Shown here: in pieces, positions 10,547-28,389 of the stretch
Layout of the letters: every line of letters starts with the position of its first letter
How positions within the stretch are numbered: position 1 is the first letter of the stretch
DNA from: an uncultured virus (IMG/VR IMGVR_UViG_3300034072_000446)
Taxonomy: Duplodnaviria > Heunggongvirae > Uroviricota > Caudoviricetes
DNA: 64,000 nt
Direction: 5' to 3' (one strand)
IMG/VR virus record: IMGVR_UViG_3300034072_000446
The notes under the pieces: model-generated
The model's input: only the letters and a program-made list of their open reading frames with translations
Databases searched by the model: none
What the model was told of the DNA's origin: nothing
Made by a program: the position numbers and the translations under genes

Positions 10547-11009
10547 TTTTCATAAACTCCACAAGTCTGATGAATTCTTCTATAGTGCCGTCAGATTTAA
10601 GGTTGTTGGCTCTCCACGACAAAACTTGAATATTCCCTTTTACATACCCTTTAGAAGAATCTATGCGATCTAAAGAAGGTTTGTTATCTTTTGTCCCTTT
10701 ATTAGCATAAAGCTCAAGAGGGAACCCGAAGACAGGACAATGGGTAGGGATATCAAAGTCATCTTCAGTGAGATTGAACTCTAGTCCCCTCTTTTTAGCC
10801 CTACTTTTAGCGTTTTGTAGCAAATACTTTTTAGGATTTGACTCACGCCATCTGTAGTTATAAACATCTGATTTACTAAGACCTTGCTCAAGCCCCTTTT
10901 TCTGCCAACGTTGATTAGACGCTACAGCACACGGCGAGCAATAGTTCGATTTAGTAAAAATTTCTGTACCGCATGAACAGTACTTTTTTCCATCTATGAA
11001 TTTAGCCAT
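10533..11009 (-). CDS. HNH homing endonuclease
   Basis: N-terminal Cys cluster, CPVFG and PSLDRIDSSKGYVKGNIQVLSWRANNLK; AT-rich. Confidence 0.85.
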   Translation of the reverse strand: MAKFIDGKKYCSCGTEIFTKSNYCSPCAVASNQRWQKKGLEQGLSKSDVYNYRWRESNPKKYLLQNAKSRAKKRGLEFNLTEDDFDIPTHCPVFGFPLELYANKGTKDNKPSLDRIDSSKGYVKGNIQVLSWRANNLKSDGTIEEFIRLVEFMKNGDT

Positions 11010-11036
11010 TATAAAGTTCTCCCTACCTTATACACT

Positions 11037-11065
11037 ATTATAACATATTCTGCAATTTTTGTCAA
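11037..11065 (-). promoter_or_regulatory. Consensus sigma70 promoter for the packaging/structural operon
   Basis: TTGACA-N17-TATAAT with extended TG on the minus strand. Confidence 0.85.
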
Positions 11066-11123
11066 GAGAAAAATGCAAAATTGTGTAAAAATAAAAATAT
11101 TTTTTAATTTATGACGATTTTTA

Positions 11124-11152
11124 TTGACAACTTTCGCAATCTATGGTATAAT
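11124..11152 (+). promoter_or_regulatory. Consensus sigma70 promoter, divergent from the structural promoter
   Basis: TTGACA-N17-TATAAT with extended TG. Confidence 0.85.
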
Positions 11153-11158
11153 ACATTA

Positions 11159-11391
11159 TAGGGTTGCGAGGGTTAATATATACCCCTTATATTCAATAAT
11201 GAATACTCTATGGAGGATAGGCCGAGGGAGCGTAGCGACTGAGGCCTTAGGAGGTAGTAGTTATAACATACAAAGAAAGGAGGGCCTTCCGTGTTTACTC
11301 TTGTGAAGTGAGAAGGGAGGTGATCATTAAATTATCTAGGTTAAGGGCTTCTTAGGCACCCTCTGGGCGACCTTGGGAGCCCTTTTCTTTT
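11159..11391 (+). ncRNA. Putative ~230-nt sRNA rich in GGAGG motifs
   Basis: Bounded by a consensus promoter and an intrinsic terminator; no convincing protein ORF. Confidence 0.55.
11345..11391 (+). terminator. Intrinsic terminator
   Basis: GGGCTTCTTAGG/CCTTGGGAGCCC stem followed by TTTTCTTTT. Confidence 0.8.
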
Positions 11392-11570
11392 GTCAATACT
11401 GAATTATTAATTTTTATATAGACTCATGGGTTATATGCCTGTGGGTCTTTTTTTTGTAATTTTTTCTGTAACGTTTGAGTAGGGTCCCCTCTACGCTACA
11501 TATACGCGCGCGTGCTTCATCCCCCCCCCCCTTATGAGGTAATGTTATAACGTCACCTGCCCACGGGCCG

Positions 11571-11720
11571 CGCAAGAATATTACAAGCAGACGCAACAAA
11601 CACATAGATAAGGCTCGATTCGCTTGCTGACAGACGCAACAATATTACAACACGCAATAATCTTACAAAGGACTATCCATCTATTACGCGAAGCTTCCCT
11701 TGTACGAAATAATGTAACAA
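11571..11720 (+). repeat. 16-bp direct repeats CGCAAnAATmTTACAA
   Basis: Copies at 11571, 11635 and 11653, plus a degenerate copy at 11705. Confidence 0.75.
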
Positions 11721-11740
11721 AAACAGCATGAAAAAAGCAA

Positions 11741-11769
11741 TTTACTTTCGAAAACACCTGGTCTACACC
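11741..11769 (+). promoter_or_regulatory. Putative early sigma70-type promoter
   Basis: TTTACT-N17-TACACC preceded by an A-rich UP-like tract, just upstream of the structured region. Confidence 0.5.
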
Positions 11770-11775
11770 TTGGTC

Positions 11776-12340
11776 ATCGAGAGAGACGGGCCGCCCGGAC
11801 GGGTCAAGCCTCTAGTTCTCCTTGGTCTAGGTCTGACTTGGCAACTAGTCATGTCTAGTTACATAACCCCAATGCGTTAGCTTGTGGACGTGAATTGCAG
11901 TTGCGTAAAGTGCTGCAAGTAAGCGGGTAAAACAGGTGCAAAGGGGAAGCAACGGGCAAGCGGTATTCGCACTGGACATGGATTTGTCCGAAGTGCAGGT
12001 TATCCGGCGGTAACGCGACAGGATACGATCGTCTTGTGTTGGGTCTGACAAGCCTGACAACCGGATTAGGACTATACGTAGACGTAACGTCTATCGGTAT
12101 GGTCAACACGCTGGCTAGGTTCGCTTAGGGCCGATGCCAGCAAGCCCTAGGGTCCGGTAAAAGCCCGGCAGAGAGTTATGTCCTACCTAGGGTATTCCGA
12201 TTATGTGTGATGGCTATCACACACGATGATTATCGCCAAGCTGTTGACAGTTGCAAATAGCAGGGACGGATAGGCTTTTGTAAGCCTTGGGGATGAGAGC
12301 CCGTAAGCCTTAGAATAGATTGGCTGTCCTTGGCGATAAT
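11776..12340 (+). ncRNA. Candidate large structured non-coding RNA (~565 nt)
   Basis: About ten consecutive hairpins or multibranch domains with GCAA/GUAA/UUCG tetraloops and many G-U pairs; no credible ORF. Confidence 0.65.
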
Positions 12341-12405
12341 TCCACATCCTATTGTATCTGTTAGCGCAGCAACACATATCTTTGGATAACCGGAAGGATA
12401 ACCAC

Positions 12406-12576
12406 ATGTATAGAGACTTCTCTCTGCACGTTGCACAATACAAGGCTCTCTTTTCAGGCCTTGTTCTACGGCCTGCCTGCATCGGCCCTTATACGTTCAA
12501 CTATGGCTTGGCTGGAAACTATCGCCCAAACCTTGCCAAAGCTCTTTTGGGAGACCGTTACAATGGCGAGAATTGA
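12406..12576 (+). CDS. Early hypothetical protein
   Basis: ATG preceded by AAGGA; overlaps the next ORF. Confidence 0.5.
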   Translation: MYRDFSLHVAQYKALFSGLVLRPACIGPYTFNYGLAGNYRPNLAKALLGDRYNGEN

Positions 12577-12796
12577 CACTCATCGCGCCGCCTATGTGCG
12601 GGTAAATCCTAACATGAAAGTCGGCAAGTCTGTCCCGTCTAAGCAATCGCTTATTGACAGGCTGACAGCCCTTGAAACTGACATTTCCCGTATGAACACG
12701 GCAAACTTGCCTGAGAGTGAACGTGCGCTTGTTGAACGTGCGCAAGCGGCTGTCCTTGTTGCCCGTCGTTCGTTGCGGATAATGATAACGAAGTGA
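12563..12796 (+). CDS. Early hypothetical protein
   Basis: GGGAG RBS; phage-like codon usage. Confidence 0.6.
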   Translation: MARIDTHRAAYVRVNPNMKVGKSVPSKQSLIDRLTALETDISRMNTANLPESERALVERAQAAVLVARRSLRIMITK

Positions 12797-12826
12797 TTCG
12801 TATGTGCTGCGCTAACACCTGCAATA

Positions 12827-12858
12827 GCGGCTTTGCCACGTCACGGCAAAGCCGTTTT
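12827..12858 (+). terminator. Hairpin (terminator or processing stem)
   Basis: GCGGCTTTGCC/GGCAAAGCCGT 11-bp stem followed by TTT. Confidence 0.5.
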
Positions 12859-12900
12859 AGTGTAGGGCTTGGACAACCAAGTATCTTTTGGAGAACCGAA

Positions 12901-13455
12901 ATGTCGCTCAAGACCATTGATAAGAATATCAAGACCATCACCACGAATGCAGCCAAGCTGAACATTCTCATCCATGAGACTGCCATGCTTATCATGTCTC
13001 ATGCGAAGGAACATGGCGATTGCTCTCGTGCGCTGACTCTTGCAAACGCTATGCCTGCATCCATGCGTAGGACCATGCTTGTTGCTTGGTTCGACAAGTA
13101 TTCTCCTATTCGTGTGATTCAGGCGAACAACAAGGTCGGTATTCTCAAACCTACCGCCAAGAACTATGTCGAATGGGACTTGGAAGGGGCTGCTGCTGAA
13201 CCATTCTATGAGCTTGCAGAGGCTGTGCCTGAAAAGCCTCCTCTCGACTTCAATGCACTGATGCAGATGGTTGCCCGTCTGTCCAAACAGATTGAGAAGA
13301 AGGTCGAGAATGGTGAAGTCGTGGACCGTGATATCGAATCGGCAAAGGCTCTTGCTCGTGCTGTGTCCGGTCTCAAGGTCGAACGCGTGACTGCACCTAC
13401 CAATGAGACCAAGACTCTCACTCCGCTGGCTGAAGGTATCCGCGAAGCGGCATAA
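12901..13455 (+). CDS. Early hypothetical protein
   Basis: 184 aa from ATG 12901 with GGAG RBS; biased codon usage. Confidence 0.8.
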   Translation: MSLKTIDKNIKTITTNAAKLNILIHETAMLIMSHAKEHGDCSRALTLANAMPASMRRTMLVAWFDKYSPIRVIQANNKVGILKPTAKNYVEWDLEGAAAEPFYELAEAVPEKPPLDFNALMQMVARLSKQIEKKVENGEVVDRDIESAKALARAVSGLKVERVTAPTNETKTLTPLAEGIREAA

Positions 13456-13612
13456 CCTGCCACACCTGAGCACGTGGATAAACTGCTCAACACACATCTA
13501 TCATCGTCGGAGTAACGCTTATGCAACCTCTCACTATCCGTGAAACAGTCATTGGCACCGGCATATTCATGCTTGTGCTGTGGCTTCTTGGTGTGGCTGT
13601 GGAGTTGTCTGC

Positions 13613-14098
13613 ATGAACATATTCCATCTTAGCGATAGTCCTGTCCTGTCTGCACAATACCAGCATGACAAGCATGTCGTTAAGATGACCCTTGAGACTG
13701 CACAACTTGTGTCTCAAGCCATCCGCAAGCGCCCTGACTGGTGGGAGTTGTGTGACGACAATATTCATCTTTACCAGTCAACACATATTCATCATCCTTC
13801 CTCTGTATGGACGCGCGCTACTGCTAACAATCTGCGTTGGCTGTGTGCGCACGGTCTAGCCCTTGCGGATGAATACTCATACCGCTTCTATCGTGACCAC
13901 AAATCACGACGCATAATCCAGATTGCCCAAGACTTGTGCGACAAGCTGCCAAGCGATGAACTAACACCTTTCGCTATGGCTATGCCTGTTCATTACAAGA
14001 CAGACGATCCCGTGTTGTCCTATCGTCTGTATTATCTTGGTGAGAAGATTAAGGACGACAGCAATTGGACACGTCGCAGACGTGACCTTCCTGACTAG
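13613..14098 (+). CDS. Pyrimidine-dimer DNA glycosylase (DenV-like) family protein
   Basis: MNIFHLSDSP..SAQYQHDKHVVKM.LETAQL, THIHHPSSVW and TPFAMAMP motifs. Confidence 0.8.
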   Translation: MNIFHLSDSPVLSAQYQHDKHVVKMTLETAQLVSQAIRKRPDWWELCDDNIHLYQSTHIHHPSSVWTRATANNLRWLCAHGLALADEYSYRFYRDHKSRRIIQIAQDLCDKLPSDELTPFAMAMPVHYKTDDPVLSYRLYYLGEKIKDDSNWTRRRRDLPD

Positions 14099-14130
14099 CT
14101 CTTGCGCCCTGCTTTAGGTATCAGATAGTC

Positions 14131-14256
14131 CATTGTTGTGTGTAGTAGTGTAGTCAGCATACGTAGATGACCGTCACTAGGGAGTAATTACCCGATCCGC
14201 GTGTTACCGTGCTGATAAACGGAGAACCTAGGCTCTCACTACTACACTCAGCAATG
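14131..14256 (+). ncRNA. Structured RNA element closed by a ~20-bp stem
   Basis: 14131-14150 pairs with 14237-14256 (one mismatch) and encloses inner hairpins. Confidence 0.6.
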
Positions 14257-14283
14257 AGGCTGATTAACAAGGAGTAATCTATC

Positions 14284-14448
14284 ATGGCTAAGCACGCATT
14301 CCGTTCGAACGACTATACCTTCCGCCCCACCTCGCTCGGCCAGCGTCTTGCTGAAGCAGGGCTTGTCAAGGCCCCTCACCTTGTGCGTGAAGCCAAGCTG
14401 GAAGTCATCTCGGGCAACAAGCACACTGTGCTGTCAGTTGCAGCATGA
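14284..14448 (+). CDS. Small hypothetical protein (54 aa)
   Basis: AAGGAG RBS; MAKHAFRSNDYTFRPTSLGQRLAEAGLV... Confidence 0.65.
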   Translation: MAKHAFRSNDYTFRPTSLGQRLAEAGLVKAPHLVREAKLEVISGNKHTVLSVAA

Positions 14449-14524
14449 CAGACTGGCAACCCGGAGACCGGACGTTGGAGGACGGTGAACCTGTTTCCTG
14501 TCGTTTTGTGAAGGACAATGCCTA

Positions 14525-14719
14525 ATGCTTTTTCGGACTCTTCTTCATGCGCTGTTCTATTTCAGCGTGTTCATCATGTGTCTGCTGATCAATATTCAGT
14601 TGCTAACATATATCATCATCGGCACTAGCGGTCTTTGGCCGGTCGTTCCAATCGCTGTGCTTATATTCGTAGGTTCGATCTTTCTCGACCGACTGTTCAC
14701 CACATTGACGGAGATTTAG
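14525..14719 (+). CDS. Small membrane protein
   Basis: 64 aa with two hydrophobic stretches. Confidence 0.6.
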   Translation: MLFRTLLHALFYFSVFIMCLLINIQLLTYIIIGTSGLWPVVPIAVLIFVGSIFLDRLFTTLTEI

Positions 14720-14720
14720 T

Positions 14721-15320
14721 ATGCACAAGACTCCACACGGCGGCGAGTGCTGCGGCATTTGGCATATTCACGGCATGGGGTATGGACCAACTGAAAATGA
14801 AGGAAGTCCCCAAAATCCTGTTACAAAGGAAGCACGACTTCGTGAATTGATTGACTCGCTTGATTTTCAGCGAACGTATGATGAAGACGACATTGACGAT
14901 GATGCCCCGATTTACAACAATGGTCGTGTCAAGGAAGTCGTGCTTGCTGACTACCAGCTTGCCGGCTGGCAAGACAAGCTTATTGAGATGGGATTCAAGA
15001 AGGTTGCTTCGTTCCTGAACAGTAACTCTGAGAATATTTGCCATGTCTTCTATCACCATCCTGATCTCACCCTGTATGGGAACGAGCAGCAACCGGGACG
15101 TCCGCAGATTCGTGAAGTTGAAGTGCCTGTTCGTATGCCGATTGAACGCTCGGCTGTGCTGGTGGAATACTTCCCGAATTTCCGCGTAGGTGGTCGGGGA
15201 CGCCCGTTTTCCTCGCTTCGAGAGGTGCGTGAACATGCCCCCTTGGTCCGACGGATTGATCGGCGAACTGTCTTCAATGACGGAACTGTTGAATGGGAGT
15301 ACAATGTTCGTGCAAATTAA
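14721..15320 (+). CDS. Hypothetical protein
   Basis: 199 aa, GGAG RBS. Confidence 0.75.
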   Translation: MHKTPHGGECCGIWHIHGMGYGPTENEGSPQNPVTKEARLRELIDSLDFQRTYDEDDIDDDAPIYNNGRVKEVVLADYQLAGWQDKLIEMGFKKVASFLNSNSENICHVFYHHPDLTLYGNEQQPGRPQIREVEVPVRMPIERSAVLVEYFPNFRVGGRGRPFSSLREVREHAPLVRRIDRRTVFNDGTVEWEYNVRAN

Positions 15321-16320
15321 CGACTTCTCTTATACACCTCTTCACTCTGAAGATAACATGGCGGCGGCTAAGGAGTGGCTTGTAGAGGCTATCTCTGATA
15401 AAGCTTTTACCAGCACCGCCAACTTTGCTTTTATCAACGCTGATAGCAAAGTTCTTTCGTATTGTGGGGAAGCCTGTCATAACTCAATGGGTTGTTCAGG
15501 AACTTACCAGAAAACTTCCGTTCTTGTAGCAACTGAAGCGTATCTTCATCAGAAGAATAGGCGAGACGATTACAAATACTGTCGATACGACAATGATTAC
15601 AGATTTATACGATACGATAAATCTGCCGAACTTATGATGCCATTCTTTGAGTGGGTGGTTTATGAGTCTGTGTATGGCAGGTTTATTCTTAATCGTGATG
15701 ATCGTGAATCAGTAGAGACTGGTTTCATTGTCTCCTCTGCCGTGCCTGCATCTATTATGCAGTCTATTATGATTCTTAGCAGACACTTCTATGAAGTCTG
15801 CCCAGAATCGTTCGAGGCGTTTAATCGTCTTCGTAGTATGGGTGTGCCCGGTTCTGTTGCTTATGTGGTAAGCTTTAACACGGCTTATGGAAGCAACACG
15901 GACCACGGGCCTATCGACATTAAGAAACCTGTGACCGGCAAATGGGGACACAGGTTGTTTGCTATTCCTGCAACTACAAAGGAACTGCATAACTTTATCA
16001 CAGGCAATGCCATTGGGCTCGATCAGACTGATCGGGCATACTGTGATCACCCATCTACGCGTGGCACAAGCACCTTGTTTTGCAATCGTAATACCGGGGG
16101 CCAGCCGCCATTCACTAAGCAACTGATTATGAATGATGCACCCTTTGCAGAAATGCTGCGGAAGTATCGTGGTGGAAATACGGGCACATCTATCATCAAT
16201 CCGTTTGTTCGCCACGATGGCCGAACTCCTGCCCCGACTGACGTTACTTACGAAGAATTGTATAACGTCATCATCCCTTATCTGTATGAACGAGGAGATT
16301 TCAAAGATGCGATCCACTGA
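15304..16320 (+). CDS. Hypothetical protein
   Basis: Long ORF in the operon; start uncertain (15304 or 15358). Confidence 0.7.
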   Translation: MFVQINDFSYTPLHSEDNMAAAKEWLVEAISDKAFTSTANFAFINADSKVLSYCGEACHNSMGCSGTYQKTSVLVATEAYLHQKNRRDDYKYCRYDNDYRFIRYDKSAELMMPFFEWVVYESVYGRFILNRDDRESVETGFIVSSAVPASIMQSIMILSRHFYEVCPESFEAFNRLRSMGVPGSVAYVVSFNTAYGSNTDHGPIDIKKPVTGKWGHRLFAIPATTKELHNFITGNAIGLDQTDRAYCDHPSTRGTSTLFCNRNTGGQPPFTKQLIMNDAPFAEMLRKYRGGNTGTSIINPFVRHDGRTPAPTDVTYEELYNVIIPYLYERGDFKDAIH

Positions 16321-16519
16321 TAGCCGGTCTACGGCGACCGACAATCCTATGGACGGATGGAATGACAATCAGGTTGCCGACGCTATGCGGCAGACCTTGA
16401 AGACCTTGATTGAGCTTAGAAATAAGCTTGGTAAAAGAGGCTATGACGTAACACTCGATAGCCACCCAACCAATTATATTCCAACTCGCGTAACTGCACG
16501 AAAGACGGTGATTCTCTAA
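16307..16519 (+). CDS. Hypothetical protein
   Basis: GAGGAG RBS; stop overlaps the next ATG. Confidence 0.6.
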   Translation: MRSTDSRSTATDNPMDGWNDNQVADAMRQTLKTLIELRNKLGKRGYDVTLDSHPTNYIPTRVTARKTVIL

Positions 16520-17277
16520 TGTCCGCAATGACTTCAATCTCTAAGAACTACACTAGCCGTGAAATGCCCGAATGCAAGGGTATGAAGGCTTTTGTTCTTC
16601 CGGGTGCCTTCTATGGCGCATGTGTCGCTCTCATGGCCGAGGCCGGCTTTGGCAAGGCAAACACTGTCGAAGATGCAGACGTCGTTGTCTTCATCGGCGG
16701 TGAAGATATCAACCCCAAGCTTTACGACGCCAAGGCACATCGTTCATCTTTCTGGACTGACGACCGAGACTTCCAAGAGGAGTTCTTCTATCGCAAGGCC
16801 CAGAGGCTAAACAAGGTGTGTTTCGGTATCTGCCGCGGCGCACAGTTCCTTCATGCGATGAATGGCGGCAAGCTCTGGCAGAACGTCAATAATCATGGCG
16901 GACCTGATCATGTTATCTATGACATTGACGATGATGTGTATGTGACGGCTACGTCTCTGCATCACCAGATGTTGCAGTTCAACAAGGATATGGAAGTCAT
17001 TGCTTGCACGAAGGAGCAGGTTGCTACCAAGTTTGAAGAAGCTGATTTGGTTGTCCATGTTGACAAGGAAACCGATGACGCTGCTGTTGAACTTGAGATC
17101 GAAGCAGGTTGCTACGCACTGACGCAATGCTTTTTCGTACAAGGCCATCCTGAAATCGGCAATGAGCAGTATCGTTCGTGGACCATGAACAAGCTCTTTA
17201 ACCTGATGTTGGAATGGGGAGCTAAGGATCGTATTGCCGATGAGCCTTACGACGATAGCGAAGGAGTTGCAGCATGA
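16519..17277 (+). CDS. Class I glutamine amidotransferase / peptidase C26-like
   Basis: GGEDINP..Y, FGICRGAQ nucleophile elbow, SLHHQ and VQGHPE motifs. Confidence 0.9.
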   Translation: MSAMTSISKNYTSREMPECKGMKAFVLPGAFYGACVALMAEAGFGKANTVEDADVVVFIGGEDINPKLYDAKAHRSSFWTDDRDFQEEFFYRKAQRLNKVCFGICRGAQFLHAMNGGKLWQNVNNHGGPDHVIYDIDDDVYVTATSLHHQMLQFNKDMEVIACTKEQVATKFEEADLVVHVDKETDDAAVELEIEAGCYALTQCFFVQGHPEIGNEQYRSWTMNKLFNLMLEWGAKDRIADEPYDDSEGVAA

Positions 17278-17360
17278 CACCTCTAGGGAAAGTCTTAGTA
17301 ATAGCTCTACTGACATCTCTATGTTGGTTGGCCGTTATCCTCACCTTTAATCTCCTCTAG
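17274..17360 (+). CDS. 28-aa hydrophobic peptide
   Basis: AAGGAG RBS, ATGA overlap with upstream stop; MTPLGKVLVIALLTSLCWLAVILTFNLL. Confidence 0.55.
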   Translation: MTPLGKVLVIALLTSLCWLAVILTFNLL

Positions 17361-17444
17361 AAGCATTGTTTAAGAGGGTTGTTATAGATAATAGTTAAAG
17401 ACTATTGTTTATTACAATCTTCTTAAACAACCCTTCTATAAGAG

Positions 17445-17473
17445 ATTATATCATCTCTTGTACGAATTGTCAA
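17445..17473 (-). promoter_or_regulatory. Consensus sigma70 promoter antisense to the early operon
   Basis: TTGACA-N17-TATAAT with extended TG on the minus strand. Confidence 0.8.
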
Positions 17474-17485
17474 GGAAAAAATGAC

Positions 17486-17860
17486 ATGCCAAAAGTTACA
17501 CGGGTGAATGTCTGCTTCTCTACTATTTCAGTAAGAAGGGCCAACGGCATTCGCTTCGATGATGGGTCAACTTTGGAAGACTTTCATGATAGCGAGTGCT
17601 GTGAACATCACTACTTAGATTTCTCAGCCATCTCCCTTGAAGACTTCGACGGATTGGAGTTTGATCTGTCGTCAGAAGATTTCTTTGAGAGAGTGCCTGA
17701 CTACGGTATCCGGCTTGTACCTACTAACGGCCACCCGGTTAGCATTCCGGGGTATGGTTACAACAACGGGTACTACTCAAGTAACCTGTCGTTGATTCTT
17801 ACAACACCTGATGGCAAGAAAACTTTCGACATCTCTGAATGCCAAGAGTGGAAGGACTAA
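17486..17860 (+). CDS. Hypothetical phage protein
   Basis: HDSECCEHHYLDF and GYGYNNGYYS motifs. Confidence 0.75.
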   Translation: MPKVTRVNVCFSTISVRRANGIRFDDGSTLEDFHDSECCEHHYLDFSAISLEDFDGLEFDLSSEDFFERVPDYGIRLVPTNGHPVSIPGYGYNNGYYSSNLSLILTTPDGKKTFDISECQEWKD

Positions 17861-17865
17861 TACTA

Positions 17866-19245
17866 ATGTGTGGAATTATAGGCGTAGCTGGCAAGATCGA
17901 CAACAAGCTGCTCAATGCATTCAAGGGTATGCTTGTTGTCAATCAACTTCGAGGCACTGATTCAACTGGTGTCATTCGTGTCAATTCAGCGGGTGGTTAC
18001 AAGTACAAGAAGTCTCTTGGCACTCCTAACTATCTTATGGAGACCAAGTTCTTTGACCGTGAGATTGATATTCACGGAGCCAAGGCGCTGATTGGCCATT
18101 GTCGAGCCAAGACTATTGGCGACAACATTGTTGCTAACGCTCACCCCTTTGAGCATGGTAACATTATTGGCGTTCATAATGGCACTCTTCAGGGCCATTA
18201 CACCATGGAGCGTGCTCGTCAGTTTGACGTAGATAGTGACTGGCTGTATTGGCACATTAGCGAATATGGTCTTAAGGACACCATCAGCCAGTTGGACAAC
18301 ACCGGTGCATGGGCGCTGGTCTATTGGGATAACAAGGAACGCACCCTTAACTTCCTCCGCAATGAGCGTCGTCCTCTTTACTTTGCTCATACAAAGGACC
18401 AGAAGGCTATGCTGTGGGCAAGTGAGCCGTGGTTCTTCTCGGCGGCTACTCGTATTGGTGTTGAACTCCATAAGGATGATGCTGGCAAATCGTTCTTTGA
18501 ACTTCCCATCGAGACACATCTATCATTCACCATCGACGCATACAAGGATAAGCCCTCGGAAATCTTTACCCTTAAGGTAGAGAACGATGTTAAAGGTGAG
18601 GTTAGAAGCTACTCGGGAAACGTGACACACCTGTATGGAAGTGGTGGCAGGTATGGTAGCAGCATCGGGGGTTCAGTGCCCAGCCCTTTCGTGGACAAGG
18701 ACCTTCTCGACGACAATCTCGACGACATAGGAACGTCACGCCCCCGCCAACTCCCAGCAACCACGCAGACTCCGGGCGCTGCGACACATACAGCTTCTAC
18801 CGTCGACAAATCGCAGAAGTCTTCACAACAAAATACGGGTTCCTCGACGGTATCGACAAGTTCGACAAATGGGCAGCGTCCAAAGCTCTCATTACCATCG
18901 TCGAGTTCCAAAAGCTGTCAGCAGGAAAACAGCGGAAGCACTGCAAGAAAGTGCAACGATTGTTCGGAGAATTGCGAAAAGCCGAAGGTGTCCTTTCGCA
19001 CAGTGTCCGGAATACCGTTCATCACGGATAATAAGACTAAGACTGAGTTCTCAGAGCAGCGTTTCGAACAGCTCACGGGAGCAGTCTGCACCTTCTGTAA
19101 GTCACCTGTTGGGGATTTGGATGAAGTCCATGAAATCTTTATTCATTCGAGTGATCGAAAGTTTGACAAGGAGTATGTGACTTTCATTTGTCGTACGTGT
19201 GTTGAACCAAACCCGGCACTTGTTGTTGCCACAATGATCAATTGA
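17866..19245 (+). CDS. Class II (Ntn) glutamine amidotransferase with S/T-rich linker and C-terminal Cys domain
   Basis: MCGIIG start, RGTDSTG, GHCRAKT, NAHPF, GVHNGT and VDSD motifs; CTFC/CRTC near the C-terminus. Confidence 0.9.
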   Translation: MCGIIGVAGKIDNKLLNAFKGMLVVNQLRGTDSTGVIRVNSAGGYKYKKSLGTPNYLMETKFFDREIDIHGAKALIGHCRAKTIGDNIVANAHPFEHGNIIGVHNGTLQGHYTMERARQFDVDSDWLYWHISEYGLKDTISQLDNTGAWALVYWDNKERTLNFLRNERRPLYFAHTKDQKAMLWASEPWFFSAATRIGVELHKDDAGKSFFELPIETHLSFTIDAYKDKPSEIFTLKVENDVKGEVRSYSGNVTHLYGSGGRYGSSIGGSVPSPFVDKDLLDDNLDDIGTSRPRQLPATTQTPGAATHTASTVDKSQKSSQQNTGSSTVSTSSTNGQRPKLSLPSSSSKSCQQENSGSTARKCNDCSENCEKPKVSFRTVSGIPFITDNKTKTEFSEQRFEQLTGAVCTFCKSPVGDLDEVHEIFIHSSDRKFDKEYVTFICRTCVEPNPALVVATMIN

Positions 19246-19257
19246 GGAGTATAATTA

Positions 19258-19473
19258 ATGTTTGTTGCAGGTTTTCGTATCACCTTTCCCGGACCTTTCG
19301 GTAATCTATACCATCACGGGGCTTGTGCAACCGCAGATAAGCTTAAGAAGGGCGCTAAGATTCAAGTAATGGATGCAAAAGGAAATGTTTCCCCGTATCC
19401 TGCTGTAGTTCACTCTAGCGGTGTTGCCGCACGTTCTGATTATGCGTTTAAGTTTGTTGGGGAGTTCAATTAA
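19258..19473 (+). CDS. Hypothetical protein
   Basis: GAGGAG RBS; coupled to the next gene. Confidence 0.65.
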   Translation: MFVAGFRITFPGPFGNLYHHGACATADKLKKGAKIQVMDAKGNVSPYPAVVHSSGVAARSDYAFKFVGEFN

Positions 19474-20486
19474 TGTTTACTATTGGTTGCGATCCTGAAA
19501 TCTTTCTGGTTGACGCCCGCACTAGCAAGCCTGTCAGTGCATACGGTGTAGTCAAGGGAACTAAGCGCGAGCCATTTAAGGTTCCTGCTGGTGCCTATCA
19601 GGTCGATGGAATGGCTCTTGAATTTAATACTGATCCTGTTCCTGCGACTGGGCAGTTCCCAATGTTTGACAAGAACATTGTCTCTGTCATGAAGAAGCTG
19701 AAGGAAGACGTTAAGGCTAACGGGTTCAAGACTGTTCGCTTTAACATTGCCCCTGTTCAGGACTTTGGTGAAGACCTTATGGCTGAGCAGCCGAAGGAAG
19801 CTAAGGAACTTGGGTGCGATCCTGATTGGAATGCTTACACCAAGGAACCTAATCCGCGGCCTGACGGCGATGTTACCTTCCGTACGGCCAGCGGGCATAT
19901 CCACGTAGGATGGGGTGCAGATATTCCTGTAGATCACCCCGATCATATCGAAATTTGTACAGGCTTCATTAAGAAGCTTGATATGACTGTCGGTATGTTC
20001 ATGACGCTGATTGACACTGATTCTCGTCGTCGTGAACTCTACGGCAAGGCTGGCGCATTCCGTCCGAAGCCTTACGGTGTTGAATATCGAACCCCGTCAA
20101 ACGTTTGGCTGACTCACAAGAACCGTCGTCGTATTATCTATGACCTTGTGAATCTTGCTACGTGGTTGAATATGCAGAGTGACCGGACTGTTAAACTGGC
20201 AATAGTAGGTCTGCCATATCTTAATTATGGCAATTGGTCTGCTAATCCTTACAGGTTTATGGACGATATTTCAGACTTGGATACTTTTATCCAGACTATT
20301 ATCAACACGGGTGATACGGAGAAGGCTAATCAGGTTCTTCGGAACATTCTGAATTATTGTTATAGTTCTCACGGCGCTACCCGAAGGCTGCTAAACGCTG
20401 AGCTTAAGCGGATGGCAGGAAAGGAAGAACCTACTCATGCTCATATTGTTGAGCGCGAAACCAAGAAGGGAACCAAGCGTGCTTAA
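19473..20486 (+). CDS. phiEco32-like COOH-NH2 ligase type 2
   Basis: IGCDPEIFL, QVDGMALEFN, LGCDPD.NAY, GHIHVG, RRELYGKAGAFRPKPYGVEYRTPSN motifs. Confidence 0.9.
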   Translation: MFTIGCDPEIFLVDARTSKPVSAYGVVKGTKREPFKVPAGAYQVDGMALEFNTDPVPATGQFPMFDKNIVSVMKKLKEDVKANGFKTVRFNIAPVQDFGEDLMAEQPKEAKELGCDPDWNAYTKEPNPRPDGDVTFRTASGHIHVGWGADIPVDHPDHIEICTGFIKKLDMTVGMFMTLIDTDSRRRELYGKAGAFRPKPYGVEYRTPSNVWLTHKNRRRIIYDLVNLATWLNMQSDRTVKLAIVGLPYLNYGNWSANPYRFMDDISDLDTFIQTIINTGDTEKANQVLRNILNYCYSSHGATRRLLNAELKRMAGKEEPTHAHIVERETKKGTKRA

Positions 20487-21138
20487 GACAGAGTACTTTT
20501 GGACGGACAGGGATCAGGCCAATGAAAGGTTGACCGGTTCGTTTGTTCTTTACAACGATTGTCCTGTTTATATCCACGAAATTAGGTCGCGTCGCGGAGA
20601 CCCTTCTGCGATTACCACTAAGTATCCTACAGGAGTATCTGAGGAAATCTCCTTGTCGGACAAGGGCTTTCATCGGTTCCGCGTTCCACTTCCTATCGGA
20701 TGGGTGAATAATACACATACAAAACAGGCGTATTTTCTTGAACGCCGACCTATTCGTTCCCGACAACACGGCTTCTCTCGAAACAATATTCTTGTTAAAG
20801 AAATTGCAATGCACCGGGGGCTGGGTCTTCTCGCTACTGGCGAAATTTCTTTTGAGACTATTGCTAAGGACGTTCAGTATCAGGCAGCCATTACTGGCAA
20901 TTACCCTGATATTGCAGAAGTTCTTAATCGTATTCGTGCTGGAACCACTATAGCGTTTTGCAATACCATGGCTGTTGGACGAGACGATCTAGGATTGCGT
21001 TGGCTGTATGTCGAACAGGATCGTGTAGGATTGTTTGTTGATAATGACACGCTTCTTCTTATCGACCGGTTCTCATACCTGAAAGAGCAAATTGCTGAAA
21101 CACCTGCTTTCAAGATTTCTAACATTAAGGAGTTCTGA
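20479..21138 (+). CDS. Hypothetical protein of the amidoligase cluster
   Basis: ORF overlapping the ligase stop; LPIGWVNN...RRPIRSRQHG. Confidence 0.7.
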   Translation: MLKTEYFWTDRDQANERLTGSFVLYNDCPVYIHEIRSRRGDPSAITTKYPTGVSEEISLSDKGFHRFRVPLPIGWVNNTHTKQAYFLERRPIRSRQHGFSRNNILVKEIAMHRGLGLLATGEISFETIAKDVQYQAAITGNYPDIAEVLNRIRAGTTIAFCNTMAVGRDDLGLRWLYVEQDRVGLFVDNDTLLLIDRFSYLKEQIAETPAFKISNIKEF

Positions 21139-21142
21139 TAAA

Positions 21143-22618
21143 ATGACTGCGTTCATGGAAGAGTACGAAAAGGTTAAGGCTCCGCATGTCGGTATTCCTT
21201 CTGTCGTAATGAACGAACCTGTTGTGGCCATTAACGGCCTTGGTGAAATCGGACTTGAGTTCGAGATTGAAGGCGAAAATCTTCCTTCGTCCGGAAAGCT
21301 GGCCCGTGTAGTGGGCAAGACTACTGGTTCGCAGTGGACTAGCAAGTCAGACGGTTCCCTTCGTGGTGAATCTCTTGAGTATGTCCTCAGCCGACCTTGC
21401 AATATTGACGAAGTAGACGCGATGGTCGAGGGTCTTTACAAGGCCTTTGTCGACAATGGAACAGAACTTAAGCTTTCAAATCGCTGCTCGACCCACGTAC
21501 ACGTCAACATGGCCGGTGCAAAAGTTAATGATATTACTTCTGCTATCGCTCTTTGGACCGCTTTCGAGGAGCCGTTGACTCTTTGGGCAGGAGAAGAGCG
21601 AGTTAATAACCACTTCTGCCTTGGTGCTAAGGATTGCAATGCAGGCACTGTGTCCGCATGGCGTAGCTTCCTTCGGTCAGGTCGTCGGGATTTCAATGAC
21701 AATCTCAAGTATAGTGCATTGAACATTCTTACGCTGTATCGCTTTGGCTCGCTTGAATACCGAGTAATGAACGGCACTGAGGATGCACAGCGTGCTATCG
21801 ATTGGACTAAGTTTGTTCATAGTCTTACTCGCTACGCTAGTGACAAGTTCGCTAATCCTGCCACGATGGCTTACAGCATGTCTGAGAAGGGCGGTCGTGA
21901 AATCTTCATGGAGATTTGTGAGAAGGCTGGTGTATCGCCTGACTTTGTAACTGGCGTTATTGACACCGTACCTGATATCAATACGGCTGTCATGTGCGGA
22001 TTCCGTCGAGCGCAACCTATTGTAGCAGGGTTCCCTTGGCACGATTGGTATGAAGAGTGCAAGAAGGAATACATCGCTGATCCTTTTGGCAAGTCTAAAA
22101 AGAAGACGGCACGACGAGCCTTTGAAGACTTTGTGATCGCCGATGACTTTGCCGCTATAGCTCCTGCACCTGCGTACAGGCTGCGTCCTCTCTTCGCTGA
22201 AGCGGTTCCGGTTGCTGACGTTGACGTTGCTCGTCCTGATGCCCCCGGTGAGCCTGATCGTCCTCGCATTGTCCCTCGTAATTACTACTGGAACGGCGAG
22301 TATTGGTGCAATCCTGACTATGACCCGGAAGCATTTAACATTAACCTGCCTGACGCACAAGTTGAGTACACAATGTGCCCTGCTGCTCTGCCGATTAGTG
22401 CCGGTGTTGTTAACTCAAATGGGTTACATTTCTACGATAATACTAGTATGCGAGTAGCCCGTGCAATTATCGTTAAGATTGACCGTCGAGGCACTATGAT
22501 TCAGGTACGTGCAAACAAGCGCCTTATGGTTGGGGGGCGTACAGACCTTTCTAGGGCATGGTGGTATAACATTCGTGATGGTCGTTTCAATGGCGACAAT
22601 ATTGCATTCATTCATTGA
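21143..22618 (+). CDS. Amidoligase (glutamine-synthetase-like COOH-NH2 ligase) with C-terminal extension
   Basis: IGLEFEIEG, DGSL...EYV, STHVHVN, KYSALN and GSLEYR motifs. Confidence 0.9.
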   Translation: MTAFMEEYEKVKAPHVGIPSVVMNEPVVAINGLGEIGLEFEIEGENLPSSGKLARVVGKTTGSQWTSKSDGSLRGESLEYVLSRPCNIDEVDAMVEGLYKAFVDNGTELKLSNRCSTHVHVNMAGAKVNDITSAIALWTAFEEPLTLWAGEERVNNHFCLGAKDCNAGTVSAWRSFLRSGRRDFNDNLKYSALNILTLYRFGSLEYRVMNGTEDAQRAIDWTKFVHSLTRYASDKFANPATMAYSMSEKGGREIFMEICEKAGVSPDFVTGVIDTVPDINTAVMCGFRRAQPIVAGFPWHDWYEECKKEYIADPFGKSKKKTARRAFEDFVIADDFAAIAPAPAYRLRPLFAEAVPVADVDVARPDAPGEPDRPRIVPRNYYWNGEYWCNPDYDPEAFNINLPDAQVEYTMCPAALPISAGVVNSNGLHFYDNTSMRVARAIIVKIDRRGTMIQVRANKRLMVGGRTDLSRAWWYNIRDGRFNGDNIAFIH

Positions 22619-22632
22619 GGTAAGGAACTAAC

Positions 22633-23385
22633 ATGCGTATTCGAGTTCTTCCATATCGTCAGGGCAGCCGCTCTGCTCGTGCTCTTGCTGACGCTCTTGG
22701 TGGCAAGGTCCTTCGTCTTGAGGGTTCGCGGTTTCGACCGCGGCCTACAGATGTAATCATTAACTGGGGTAATACTAATCCTTACGCTGGCCCTATGATC
22801 ATGTTTAACGAGCCTGAGTCTATCCGAAATGTTAGTAACAAGCTTACCTTCTTTCAAAGGATGCAGGAGCTTGCGCCTGATGTTATCCCACCATTCTGGA
22901 CGAACAAAGAGGATATTCCTGATGAAGACTTTCCTATTGTCTGCCGGACTGTTCTTGCTGGTCATTCCGGCGAAGGAATTGTTATTGCTAATACTCGGGA
23001 TGAACTAGTCGATTGTTCCCTGTATGTTAAGTATATCAAGAAGCAAGACGAATATCGTATCCATGTAGGAGTTCTTAATGATGGTGGCACATCTATCATC
23101 AGCCAGCAACGCAAAGCCCGTCGTGCCGACGTGGACGATCCAAACTGGCAAATCCGAAATCATGCCAACGGGTTTGTGTTCGTGCGACAAAACGTTCAGC
23201 CCCCTACCCTAGCACTGGACGTGGCACAGCGAGCAATGCTTGCATCAGGCCTTGACTTCGGAGCAGTGGACGTAATCTGGAATGAGCGTCAGCAGCGTGC
23301 TTACGTGCTAGAGATTAACTCAGCTCCCGGTCTCGAAGGGACTACTATTGATGATTACGTCAGGTATTTCGGAAGGCAAATCTGA
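22633..23385 (+). CDS. ATP-grasp ligase (RimK/YheCD-like)
   Basis: INWG, NKL, EYRIHV, IRNHANGF, GLDFGAVDVI and VLEINSAPG motifs. Confidence 0.9.
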   Translation: MRIRVLPYRQGSRSARALADALGGKVLRLEGSRFRPRPTDVIINWGNTNPYAGPMIMFNEPESIRNVSNKLTFFQRMQELAPDVIPPFWTNKEDIPDEDFPIVCRTVLAGHSGEGIVIANTRDELVDCSLYVKYIKKQDEYRIHVGVLNDGGTSIISQQRKARRADVDDPNWQIRNHANGFVFVRQNVQPPTLALDVAQRAMLASGLDFGAVDVIWNERQQRAYVLEINSAPGLEGTTIDDYVRYFGRQI

Positions 23386-23514
23386 TCGTTGGCCGTGGGC
23401 TTCTCAAGCTACTAGAGATTGGCGAGATAAGGTAGACGCACGGCTAAAAGCAGAACAACGTGAGAAAAATAGGCTTACACACGCAGAAATCATCGAGAGA
23501 CTTGAACTTTATCC

Positions 23515-23543
23515 TTGACAAGCGTTCGTTAAGCTGGTATATT
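23515..23543 (+). promoter_or_regulatory. sigma70 promoter for the replication genes
   Basis: TTGACA-N17-TATATT with extended TG. Confidence 0.75.
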
Positions 23544-23571
23544 TAATAGTAGGGTTAGTAGGAGATTTGTT

Positions 23572-28310: not shown

Positions 28311-28389
28311 GAAGTAGAAGGTTAGGGGTTAAACATAGTAACCCTGCAATTGCCTAATCTTCTTTTGAGAAAACTTTGAAAGGAAATAT

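What the first reader, a model, noticed from the sequence alone, without database searches (positions are those of the whole stretch)
11776..12340. Candidate novel large structured ncRNA (~565 nt) as the first early transcript
Seen: no credible ORF but continuous pairing. Elements: UGACU-UG-GCAA-CU-AGUCA (11834-11851); a long irregular helix from CCCC 11867 to GGGG 11946 topped by UUGCAG/CUGCAA; GCACU-GGACA/UGUCC-AGUGC (11969-11996); a four-way junction closed by AUCCGG/CCGGAU (12002-12066) with a GUAA tetraloop; GACUAUAC/GUAUGGUC (12070-12104); GCUGGC/GCCAGC with a UUCG loop (12110-12141); CCCUAGG/CCUAGGG enclosing a T-loop-like CCGG-UAAAAGC-CCGG (12145-12192); an 8-bp hairpin (12204-12223); and a multibranch domain closed by a perfect 12-bp stem (12229-12240/12329-12340). 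Tetraloops and G-U pairs favour the plus strand, and a promoter lies just upstream. Established: phages encode large RNAs of unknown function (GOLLD, ROOL), but I cannot assign this one to a family. Inference: an early host-takeover, anti-defence or antitermination RNA.
Basis: partly seen in the sequence, partly recalled or inferred. Interest (0 to 1): 0.85.

Follow-up and report, generated by a model that had tools for sequence, protein, structure and literature searches.

The report
Large folded leader RNA in phage
An uncultured phage carries, just ahead of its early genes, a stretch of roughly 450-560 bases that codes for no protein but folds as RNA into many hairpins that related phages keep through compensating mutations; it matches no catalogued RNA family and its job is still unknown.

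Summary
Window 11776-12340 has no credible ORF. It folds better than shuffles on the + strand (z -4.1, 0 of 100) and matches no Rfam family. A metagenome relative (L163, about 71% identical) keeps the same hairpin domains: 15-17 pairs have changed on both sides yet still pair, against 0-6 in slid controls. G-U pairs favour the + strand.

A covariance model made from the window alone (domains D5-D7) then found diverged copies in two related phage contigs. A second-round model found three or four more. All lie on the early-gene strand in the same intergenic slot, so this is a family in a clade of uncultured podophages.

It sits about 10 nt after a weak sigma-70-like promoter; relatives have TTGACA-17-TAGnnT at the matching distance. 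No terminator follows, so it is probably the 5' leader of the early operon.

It is not the first early transcript. A perfect consensus promoter plus terminators makes a separate conserved RNA of about 235-295 nt, 650 nt upstream.

Function is inferred only. I favour a protein-binding RNA cut from the mRNA at the 3' hairpin domain. A purely cis-acting leader is nearly as likely. No expression data were obtained.

The parts
11571..11720 (+). Four direct copies of a 16-mer (CGCAAnAATATTACAA; 11571, 11635, 11653, 11705) plus two copies of CAGACGCAACAA. Likely protein-binding sites (operator or iterons) upstream of the RNA promoter.
   Evidence: 7 matches in the window with up to 3 mismatches, against 1.49 expected; 4 of them are clustered here.. 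The repeats are conserved in L163.
11731..11769 (+). Candidate promoter: A-tract, -35 TTTACT (11741-11746), 17-nt spacer, -10 TACACC (11764-11769). The inferred start is near 11776.
   Evidence: Sequence. The block AACAAAAACAGCAyGAAAAAAGCAATTTAC is conserved in L163. It is not found by the consensus scan. Relatives have TTGACA-17-TAGnnT about 290-340 nt upstream of D5-D7, and the window's candidate lies 326 nt upstream.
11782..11821 (+). D1a: three-tier 5' hairpin (GAGA.C/G.UCUC, GGGC/GCCU, GCCC-GGAC-GGGU).
   Evidence: Folds of both sequences. Pairs GGGC/GCCU are kept and one pair changed on both sides (helices 1-2). Contigs of runs X5 and X20 share the stretch up to 11820-11822.
11827..11859 (+). 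D1b: variable-length hairpin. The outer stem CUAGG/UCUAG is kept, and the inner part is 12 nt longer in L163 and 6 nt shorter in the X9 contig.
   Evidence: helix 3: 4 of 8 pairs vary on one side, all still paired.
11867..11946 (+). D2: long irregular helix from CCCC to GGGG with an apical UUGCAG/CUGCAA stem.
   Evidence: Same architecture in L163. Three pairs changed on both sides (helices 5 and 7). In the X9 contig, 11901 U>G with 11912 G>C keeps a pair, and 11913 C>U and 11917 A>G keep wobble pairs.
11947..12001 (+). D3: long invariant junction (GAAnCAACGGGCAAGCGGUAUUCGCACU) and hairpin 11969-11996. The hairpin carries a 24-nt expansion in L163.
   Evidence: helix 9. The 8-mer GCAACGGG recurs on the same strand in 5 of 25 relatives' intergenic regions, where about 0.9 is expected.
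12002..12066 (+). D4: multibranch domain with the GCG-GUAA-CGC tetraloop hairpin. A hairpin loop here holds the invariant palindrome CGAUCG (12026-12031). One arm varies in length, with 19 nt more in L163.
   Evidence: I4; helices 10-13; the closing helix never varies, so it is untested.
12070..12104 (+). D5: two-tier hairpin GACUAUAC/GUAUGGUC with inner UAGACG-UAA-CGUCUA.
   Evidence: With L163, 5 of 15 pairs changed on both sides (helix 14). With four sequences, 8 of 15 did, and 100% of cells are paired (helix 1).
12110..12141 (+). D6: hairpin GCUGGC/GCCAGC with an inner stem. It is expanded by 34 nt in L163.
   Evidence: helices 15-16; helices 2-3: 8 of 11 pairs changed on both sides.
12145..12192 (+). 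D7: outer helix CCCUAGG/CCUAGGG enclosing CCGG-UAAAAGC-CCGG, followed by CAGAGAG.
   Evidence: The outer helix differs in sequence but stays paired in the window, L163, L090 and L114. All 7 outer pairs changed on both sides (helix 4). The X9 contig keeps 12140-12194 with 4 differences.
12204..12223 (+). D8: 8-bp hairpin. It is specific to the window and replaced by other hairpins in L163.
12229..12340 (+). D9: 3' domain with a conserved core (UUGCAAAUAGC...GUAAGCCUUAGAAUAGAUUGGCUG) closed by a perfect 12-bp stem. It is a candidate processing hairpin about 60-65 nt before the next start codon.
   Evidence: (I8). L163 positions 1122-1192 have the same core closed by a different perfect 12-bp stem (ACAGGAUUGCAG/CUGCAAUCCUGU), read and folded. 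The MAFFT alignment of the stems failed.
12406..12576 (+). First downstream ORF (56 aa, ATG preceded by GGAAGGA). It is absent from L163, where the 77-aa gene homologous to window 12563-12796 follows D9 directly.

Best explanation
Window 11776-12340 encodes a real + strand structured RNA of a family that is not in Rfam. The family is conserved in a clade of uncultured podophages that use the host RNA polymerase.

The RNA is a chain of hairpin and multibranch domains (D1-D8, about 11782-12223) plus a separable 3' hairpin domain (D9, 12229-12340).

It is transcribed from its own weak sigma-70-type promoter (start near 11776). Because no terminator follows, it is made as the 5' end of the rightward early-gene transcript.

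My committed reading of how it works is inference. The folded body acts as an RNA in its own right. It is made in the first minutes of infection and released from the mRNA by cleavage in the long D9-type hairpin that always precedes the next gene's ribosome-binding site. Its long invariant unpaired junctions bind a protein or other partner, as a scaffold or decoy for a host or phage factor.

Shown: the fold, the strand, the family and the position. Inferred: the promoter, the processing and any partner.
For: Fold and strand:
- z -4.14 on the + strand against -2.60 on the - strand.
- Of 102 consensus pairs, 98 and 102 are standard pairs when read on the + strand, but only 83 and 84 when read on the - strand. 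G-U pairs number 15 and 18.
- G exceeds C across 11800-12400.

Covariation:
- The window-only structure tested on L163 kept 17 pairs through changes on both sides, against 2-6 in slid controls.
- The domain-limited consensus has 15 such pairs against 0-1.
- The four-sequence model-made alignment of D5-D7 has 24 of 37 pairs against 2-7, with 98.5% of cells paired. That alignment is fitted to the model and leans towards it.
- X9 contig changes keep pairs.

Not coding. Indels against L163 are 1, 3, 7, 12, 19, 24, 27 and 31 nt.

Family:
- Model R2, built from the window alone, found L163 (57 bits, E 2e-11), L120 (22.6 bits, E 0.0016) and L090 (19.4 bits, E 0.0085) among 7 loci (88,480 nt). The next best hit had E 0.79.
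- Model R3 then found L126 (identical to L127), L146 and L122 among 80 loci, and L114 marginally.
- All hits are on the early-gene strand inside the TerS/early-gene intergenic region.

Leader:
- No terminator-like site lies between 11460 and 12840.
- Promoters sit at the matching distance in relatives.
- No phage RNA polymerase turned up in the 40 proteins I scanned against PHROGs and Pfam.

Function beyond a single gene's control:
- The gene that follows differs: a 60-aa ORF in L163, D9 plus a 56-aa ORF in the window.
- Unpaired blocks of 39 nt (one change) and 30 nt (invariant) persist at about 71% overall identity.
Against: - No transcript evidence exists. No RNA run is listed as a holder, so the start, the end and the processing are all inferred.
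- The window's own promoter is poor. It falls below the scan's 9-of-12 threshold and its second hexamer ends in C instead of the T the scan requires. Two terminator-like hairpins separate the RNA from the strong promoter at 11124.
- Being co-transcribed with and directly abutting the early genes fits a purely cis-acting leader equally well.
- Only two full-length close sequences exist. The distant members are supported for D5-D7 only. Model R1 (D2) found none of them. L089 and L094 share short motifs only.
- E-values from the shortened calibration are rough.
- D9's 12-bp stem is shorter than classic RNase III substrates (recalled), and no cleavage can be tested here.
Confidence: 0.4

Rival explanations
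1. A purely cis-acting operon leader. The fold stays attached to the early mRNA and works in cis. It might protect the 5' end from host RNases, set translation of the first genes, or modify the transcribing host polymerase in the way put or EAR RNAs do.
For: - The RNA is always directly upstream of, and co-oriented with, the early genes, with no terminator between them.
- A stable 5' hairpin starts about 6 nt after the inferred start.
- The D9-type hairpin lies 60-65 nt before a start codon in both full sequences.
- The + strand gene block it heads runs about 23 kb, and no phage polymerase turned up in the 40 proteins scanned.
Against: - A body of nine or more helices with 30-39-nt invariant junctions is far more than known stabilisers or put-type elements need (recalled sizes: about 70 and 120 nt).
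- The downstream gene is not constant.
- Near-consensus internal promoters at 19226, 23515 and 28282, together with terminator-like sites at chance level, leave no evident need for antitermination.
Confidence: 0.33
2. A DNA-level element. The region, together with the four upstream repeats and the C12 run, is the replication origin or a packaging site. The hairpins form in single-stranded DNA, or the transcript primes replication as ColE1 RNA II does.
For: - Iteron-like direct repeats lie at 11571-11720.
- A conserved element with a C12 run lies at 11458-11537.
- The location is between divergent operons next to the terminase genes.
- The size is similar to RNA II (recalled, about 550 nt).
Against: - 15-18% of the consensus pairs are G-U, which become A-C mismatches on the other strand.
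- The repeats and the C-run are conserved far more widely than the folded body, so they are separable.
- No conserved antisense promoter was found. The only - strand candidate is 12257-12229 (9 of 12), and its -10 lies in the non-conserved stem.
Confidence: 0.07
3. A diverged member of a known large RNA class (group I intron, GOLLD, ROOL, or HEARO/omega RNA) that the Rfam models miss.
For: The size and multi-domain look are similar. A GNRA tetraloop (GUAA) is present. L163 carries a tRNA 2.3 kb downstream.
Against: - No family reached even E 10 over the element itself in the window or in L163, apart from clearly unrelated models.
- No gene is interrupted.
- The window has no tRNA.
- No IscB, TnpB or reverse transcriptase gene lies nearby.
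Confidence: 0.04
4. Non-functional spacer or decayed gene whose pairing is chance.
For: The region is confined to a narrow clade at the sequence level. Blastn against 50,697 phage records finds nothing.
Against: Covariation is far above the slid and shuffled controls. Diverged copies were found with structure-based models at the syntenic place and on the matching strand. There is no protein-level similarity.
Confidence: 0.02

Closest known systems
GOLLD, ROOL and OLE: large 'ornate' bacterial and phage RNAs of unknown biochemical function
   Same: Several hundred nucleotides long, with many helices and long conserved unpaired stretches. They are non-coding, and GOLLD and ROOL are phage-associated (recalled). 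These classes form RNA-only homo-oligomers (start of the abstract of PMC12286853, seen in the listing). The window RNA has an invariant palindrome, CGAUCG, in a hairpin loop that could in principle mediate self-association.
   Different: No match to any Rfam model. The window has no neighbouring tRNA. It sits as the 5' leader of an early operon with no terminator of its own. No evidence of oligomers.
Non-coding leader of the phage T7 early transcript with RNase III site R0.3 (recalled)
   Same: A long untranslated stretch lies between host-type early promoter(s) and the first early gene. It ends in a long hairpin shortly before that gene, like D9, which is 60-65 nt before the start codon.
   Different: Here the leader is a covariation-supported, multi-domain fold conserved across diverged phages. 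Cleavage of D9 is untested, and its perfect stem is only 12 bp.
HK022 put RNAs and the EAR element: promoter-proximal RNAs giving processive antitermination (recalled)
   Same: A promoter-proximal RNA, acting as RNA, at the head of a long operon read by host polymerase.
   Different: Those are about 70-120 nt, against 450-560 nt here. No model matches. Downstream terminator-like sites are no more frequent than in shuffles.
ColE1 RNA II pre-primer (recalled)
   Same: A folded transcript of about 550 nt beside repeat-rich, origin-like DNA.
   Different: No antisense partner, no origin evidence, and it is followed directly by genes.
Structured early-gene leaders noted earlier in this scan in other phages (e1-5312274, e1-6063599)
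   Same: Uncatalogued folded RNAs right after early promoters, supported by covariation (AI notes, unchecked).
   Different: They come from different genomes. Most are 60-130 nt and repeated before several genes. No sequence relation was shown: the look-ups by sequence found nothing.

Membership tests
Any Rfam 15 family (including the GOLLD, ROOL, OLE, HEARO, raiA, group I/II intron, RNase P, 6S and tmRNA models, which I recall being in Rfam) | Score at or above the family's gathering threshold against its covariance model | tested here: not met
   There were 0 gathering matches in the whole 64-kb window. At E up to 10 on 10900-12600, only chance-level hits to unrelated models overlap the element: SBRMV1_UPD-PKd at 16.8 bits and SNORA84 at 14.5 bits. 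L163 1-1300 gave one hit, mir-449 at 15.3 bits.
GOLLD / ROOL | Frequent adjacency to tRNA genes in phage or prophage DNA (recalled) | tested here: not met
   ARAGORN found 0 tRNAs in the window. L163 has a tRNA, but 2.3 kb downstream of the RNA.
GOLLD / ROOL / OLE | Homo-oligomeric RNA-only assembly (PMC12286853, start of the abstract seen in the listing) | not testable with these tools
   Only a lead: the invariant loop palindrome CGAUCG at 12026-12031.
Group I / group II self-splicing intron | Interrupts a gene whose exons flank it; conserved catalytic core | tested here: not met
   No split ORF flanks it. tblastx found no protein-level similarity in relatives. No intron model matched.
Riboswitch or gene-specific cis-regulatory leader | Constant association with one downstream gene family | tested here: not met
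   In the window the body is followed by D9 and then a 56-aa ORF. In L163 it is followed by an unrelated 60-aa ORF, then D9. Neither ORF has a Pfam match.
put / EAR-type processive antitermination RNA | Promoter-proximal RNA followed by terminators that must be read through | tested here: inconclusive
   The RNA is promoter-proximal. Across 12300-32000 there are 18 terminator-like sites against 15.7 +/- 3.9 in shuffles, and three 11/12 internal promoters.
RNase III processing hairpin of phage early mRNAs (for D9 only) | Long, mostly perfect hairpin between transcript segments, cleaved by RNase III | not testable with these tools
   A perfect 12-bp stem is stacked on an inner helix. Its sequence is free, but the pairing is kept in L163. 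Cleavage is not testable here.
ColE1 RNA II-type replication primer | Origin immediately downstream and a conserved antisense regulator RNA | tested here: inconclusive
   Repeats lie upstream, not downstream. The only antisense promoter-like site scores 9 of 12 and is not conserved.
The new family proposed here (early-leader RNA of this podophage clade) | D5-D7 module: two-tier hairpin, then a hairpin, then an outer helix enclosing a 4-bp/7-nt-loop hairpin plus CnnAGAGAG. It lies on the early-gene strand between the TerS-side promoters and the homolog of window 12793-13455. | tested here: met
   Window 167.9 bits, L163 57 bits, L120 22.6 bits and L090 19.4 bits with model R2. L126 (identical to L127), L146, L122 and L114 with model R3. 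Positions are listed.

The most novel reading that the evidence does not exclude
This is the founding member of a new class of large, ornate phage RNAs that work as autonomous RNA machines, for example a self-assembling RNA particle or RNP scaffold. The invariant loop palindrome CGAUCG and the 30-39-nt invariant junctions fit that idea. It would be made first in infection to capture or disable a host factor such as a defence sensor, a nuclease or the polymerase. It would differ from GOLLD and ROOL in being built into the early-operon leader of host-polymerase-dependent podophages.
Probability: 0.2. Interest if true: 0.85.

Novelty: new variant of a known kind. Interest (0 to 1): 0.64.

Why it matters
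Large structured RNAs with no known function are rare, and the few phage-linked ones (GOLLD, ROOL) have turned out to have unexpected architectures. This one is backed by compensating mutations. It has a fixed genomic address, the very start of the early operon, in a whole clade of uncultured subsurface and freshwater phages. Its domains are modular enough to be synthesised and studied in vitro without culturing the phage.

If it proves to be a trans-acting early RNA, it would add an RNA-based host-takeover or anti-defence tool to phages that rely on the host polymerase. If it proves to be a cis leader, it would be by far the largest and most elaborate one known for phage early transcripts.

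Either way, the covariance model made here can seed an Rfam-type family.

Tried and rejected
**Searches that gave nothing**
- blastn (word 11) of 11000-12500 against 50,697 phage records: no match.
- The window's own assembly is not held. The nearest record, G001, does not cover the region.
- The endonuclease VII gene as an anchor: the 68% relative L002 is not syntenic, and no other locus matched the region.
- The gene 12793-13455 in viral contigs: only the identical contig.
- Exact-pattern scans. A 25-mer found only the identical contig. A 17-mer gave 3 other viral contigs sharing 18-20 nt, which are not homologous when aligned. A second 17-mer gave 99 hits in genome contigs; I estimated about 70 by chance and did not pursue them.
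- Model R1 (D2 plus junction): only the window and L163 among 81 sources. With filters off, no hit at the expected places in L089, L090, L094, L114, L120 or L159.
- An nhmmer profile of window plus L163: the best hit was L114 at E 0.09.
- MAFFT alignments of distant members were unreliable, so D7 was compared by eye and through the models.
- Smith-Waterman of the RNA against 18 intergenic regions: only L090 (z 5.6) and L159 (z 6.0) exceeded 30 shuffles. The L159 alignment was not convincing, and no model hit L159.

**Ideas rejected**
- Long-range helices of the MFE and alifold folds (11776-11826, 11827-12190, 11800-11811 with 11997-12006) were rejected. They are broken in L163 or changed on one side in the X8 contig.
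- The inverted repeat 12127-12150/12466-12489 was set aside as chance, because its second arm lies in an ORF that is absent from L163.

**Sequencing runs**
- No RNA holder is listed.
- The four runs laid were all contigs. 21 rows of differences were not shown, so most of X8's changes could not be read.
- Parts without cover say nothing.

**Earlier notes and literature**
- Earlier notes of this scan: nothing for this genome or sequence.
- Three literature searches (listings and abstract starts only) turned up no description of this RNA. No paper was read in full.
Full report
**Setting.** The window is phage DNA.
- Genes for scaffold, portal, large and small terminase and an endonuclease VII run leftward from 11009.
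- Early and replication genes run rightward from about 12406 to 35211. They include a pyrimidine-dimer glycosylase-like protein, an amidoligase/glutamine amidotransferase/ATP-grasp cluster, primase-helicase, DNA polymerase and ribonucleotide reductase.
- Virion genes run leftward again beyond that.
- No phage RNA polymerase turned up in the 40 proteins I scanned against PHROGs and Pfam.
- The phage is far from cultured ones: the portal is at most 36% identical to any of 50,697 phage records, and the region has no nucleotide match there.
- The finding lies in the 1.4-kb gap between the two divergent gene blocks.

**The observation.**
- The region has no ORF of 100 aa or more. Its one 50-aa + strand ORF (11728-11880) loses its start codon in the closest homolog.
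- As RNA the + strand folds to -212.5 kcal/mol, z -4.14, with 0 of 100 dinucleotide shuffles as good. The - strand gives z -2.60, with 3 of 100 as good.
- Rfam 15 gives no gathering hit anywhere in the window. At E up to 10 only chance-level hits to unrelated models appear.
- ARAGORN finds no tRNA or tmRNA.

**Close homologs.**
- An IMG/VR contig is identical over the whole gap.
- Using the early gene 12793-13455 as bait in the JGI metagenomes gave one relative, L163 (78% protein identity).
- L163's upstream DNA aligns to window 11590-12063 at 71% identity, and to further blocks up to 12326.
- The alignment has the look of a structured RNA. Long near-invariant stretches (39 nt with one change, and 30 nt with none) are interrupted by hairpins that differ in length by 12, 24, 19 and 34 nt.
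- The paired positions change in step. For example, UAGACG-UAA-CGUCUA becomes CAAGCG-CAA-CGCUUG.

*Test not biased by the alignment.* I folded the window alone and asked how its 152 pairs fare in L163.
- 87 were unchanged, 19 kept after a one-sided change, 17 kept after changes on both sides, 28 broken and 1 gapped.
- Sliding the partner by 1-3 columns gave 2-6 kept on both sides and 41-51 broken.
- The broken pairs cluster in the long-range helices of the minimum-energy fold, which I therefore drop.

*Domain-limited consensus.*
- It has 102 pairs, all standard in both sequences, and 15 have changes on both sides against 0-1 in slid controls. This structure was derived from the same two sequences, so it has a built-in advantage.
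- 15 and 18 of its pairs are G-U. Read on the opposite strand, only 83 and 84 of the 102 would pair.
- Together with the G-over-C excess, this fixes the + strand.

*Not coding.* tblastx between the two sequences gives short hits in all six frames with frame switches, and every frame has at least 5 stops.

*Contigs from public runs* (contigs only, 80% likeness).
- A 774-nt contig of run X9 covers 11767-11997 and 12140-12194, with 182 other letters replacing 11998-12139.
- Its changes 11901 U>G and 11912 G>C convert a U-G pair to G-C. Its changes 11913 C>U and 11917 A>G leave wobble pairs.
- Its 6-nt deletion falls in the variable hairpin D1b.
- A 230-nt contig of X8 covers 11957-12181 at about 86% identity, but most of its differences were not listed.
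- Contigs of X5 and X20 share 11487/11569 to 11820-11822.

**A wider family.** nhmmer, blastn and a first model of D2 (R1) found nothing in 79 loci carrying a related terminase (55-93% identity). Even so, 25 of these keep the same gene order with 1.7-3.4 kb between TerS and the early gene, and several of the gaps are ORF-poor. One, in L094, folds at z -4.87 against 20 shuffles.

I then built a model from the window sequence alone, with my own structure for D5-D7 (R2).
- With filters off on 7 loci (88,480 nt) it scored L163 at 57 bits (E 2e-11), L120 at 22.6 bits (E 0.0016) and L090 at 19.4 bits (E 0.0085). The next best hit had E 0.79.
- L090 is also the relative whose intergenic region aligns colinearly with the window RNA (score 38 against a null of 26 +/- 2). 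Its region folds at z -2.89.
- The four-sequence alignment made by the model has 98.5% of cells paired and 24 of 37 pairs changed on both sides, against 2-7 when slid. This alignment leans towards the model's structure.

A second-round model (R3) was searched over 80 loci plus the window.
- It added L126 (identical to L127; 29.3 bits, E 0.0022), L146 (24.1 bits, E 0.026) and L122 (19.5 bits, E 0.24).
- With filters off on 7 loci the E-values were 2.3e-4, 0.001 and 0.024. L114 scored 17 bits (E 0.079), exactly where I had found a D7-like module by eye.
- L089, L094 and L159 were not hit. L089 and L094 share only short motifs: GCAACGGG, and 'GCYUrACGA-hairpin-UGCGGG'.
- Every hit lies on the early-gene strand inside the syntenic gap.
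- E-values come from a shortened calibration and are rough.

**Anatomy.**
- *5' side:* an A-tract, TTTACT, 17 nt and TACACC (11741-11769) would start transcription near 11776. The consensus scan does not call it.
- *Comparative support for that promoter:* L126, L146 and L122 carry TTGACA-16/17-TAGnnT-type sites 290-340 nt upstream of their D5-D7. The window's candidate is 326 nt upstream of its own.
- *Further upstream:* four direct 16-mer repeats lie at 11571-11720, and nowhere else in the window do they cluster. They are conserved in L163.
- *The RNA body:* D1a 11782-11821, D1b 11827-11859, D2 11867-11946, D3 to 12001, D4 12002-12066, D5 12070-12104, D6 12110-12141, D7 12145-12192 and D8 12204-12223 (window-specific).
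- *D9 (12229-12340) is separable.* In L163 a 60-aa ORF with a GGGAG ribosome-binding site lies between D8 and D9.
- D9's conserved core is closed in L163 by a perfect 12-bp stem of unrelated sequence.
- In both phages D9 ends 60-65 nt before the next start codon.
- *3' side:* no terminator-like site follows.

**What it is not.** It is not the first early transcript.
- A 12/12 consensus promoter with a TG extension lies at 11124-11152.
- It is followed by a conserved transcript of about 235-295 nt. This holds an invariant hairpin, GGGCGACCUUGGGAGCCC, with a U-run. In the window a second strong terminator-like hairpin lies at 11420-11448.
- This unit, and the following element with a C12 run (11458-11537), are conserved far more widely than the finding.

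**How it probably works.** Shown: a + strand fold under selection, a family, and a fixed place at the head of the early operon.

Inferred: transcription by host polymerase from its own promoter as the first part of the early transcript.

Beyond that I commit, at about 40%, to the following.
- The body works as an RNA in its own right and binds a partner through its invariant junctions.
- It is freed from the mRNA by cleavage in the D9-type hairpin, as RNase III does in T7 early RNA (recalled).
- The reasons are its size and complexity, the invariant unpaired blocks at 71% overall identity, and the fact that the gene behind it is not constant.

A purely cis-acting leader (stability, translation, or polymerase modification) is nearly as likely, at about 33%.
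- Antitermination in particular has no special support. Downstream terminator-like sites are at chance level, and three near-consensus internal promoters exist.

A DNA-level role (origin or packaging) is unlikely because of the G-U content, and because the repeats and the C-run are separable from the fold.

**Comparison and novelty.**
- The closest kinds are the large ornate RNAs GOLLD, ROOL and OLE, and the long leader of T7-type early transcripts.
- Membership in any Rfam family was tested and not met.
- Three literature searches (listings and abstract starts only) and the scan's own notes show no prior description.
- I rate it a new RNA family of a known general kind.
- No expression data could be obtained, and that is the main gap.

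Noticed in passing
window 11124-11455 (+): A perfect 12/12 sigma-70 promoter with a TG extension (11124-11152) drives a separate non-coding unit of about 235-295 nt. It contains an invariant hairpin, GGGCGACCUUGGGAGCCC, plus a U-run (about 11338-11393; weak Rfam ctRNA_p42d hit, 25.1 bits, E 0.01) and a second terminator-like hairpin at 11420-11448. The promoter, the 5' motif GAGGGUUAAU and the hairpin are conserved in at least 9 related contigs. This may be a small RNA or a nut-like leader, and it is the true first rightward transcript.
   Followed up: partly
window 11458-11537: A conserved element ends in a C12 homopolymer (ACGCGCGCG...CCCCCCCCCCCC) and is shared by many terminase relatives. 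Metagenome contigs tend to break at it: L163 starts there, X9 contigs end or start there, and the run length varies by 1-3. Function unknown (genome end, origin or binding site?).
   Followed up: partly
window 11571-11720: Four direct copies of CGCAAnAATATTACAA and two of CAGACGCAACAA are clustered only here in the 64 kb and are conserved in L163. They look like iterons or operator sites.
   Followed up: partly
window 11037-11065 (-): A second perfect 12/12 consensus promoter points leftward into the endonuclease VII/terminase/portal block, back to back with the rightward one. A third 12/12 site lies on the - strand at 17445-17473, inside the rightward gene block.
   Followed up: no
window 16519-23385 (+): A cluster of glutamine amidotransferases, a COOH-NH2 ligase, an amidoligase and a RimK-like ATP-grasp protein lies among the early genes. 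This suggests a peptide- or metabolite-modifying pathway, possibly a DNA or protein modification.
   Followed up: no
window 12026-12031: The six-base palindrome CGAUCG sits in a hairpin loop of D4 and is invariant in L163. In L090 the matching place is an ordinary hairpin (AACGAUU-AGC-AAUCGUU). It is a possible kissing-loop dimerisation site.
   Followed up: no
L163 883-1065 and 3568-3640; L090 2967-3037: L163 carries a 60-aa ORF (no Pfam match) inserted between the RNA body and D9, and a tRNA gene downstream. L090 has a tRNA next to its terminase-side promoter region.
   Followed up: no
L146 and L159 intergenic regions (positions 795-1230 in window orientation): These two relatives share a 75% identical, roughly 440-nt ORF-poor block upstream of their D5-D7 position. 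It may be the 5' half of their version of the RNA, or another element.
   Followed up: no
L094:4993-5655 (-): The equivalent ORF-poor region of this relative folds at z -4.87 (20 shuffles). It shares the motifs GCAACGGG and AACCGGAU with the window RNA but is not hit by the D5-D7 models. It is possibly a very diverged or different RNA in the same slot.
   Followed up: partly
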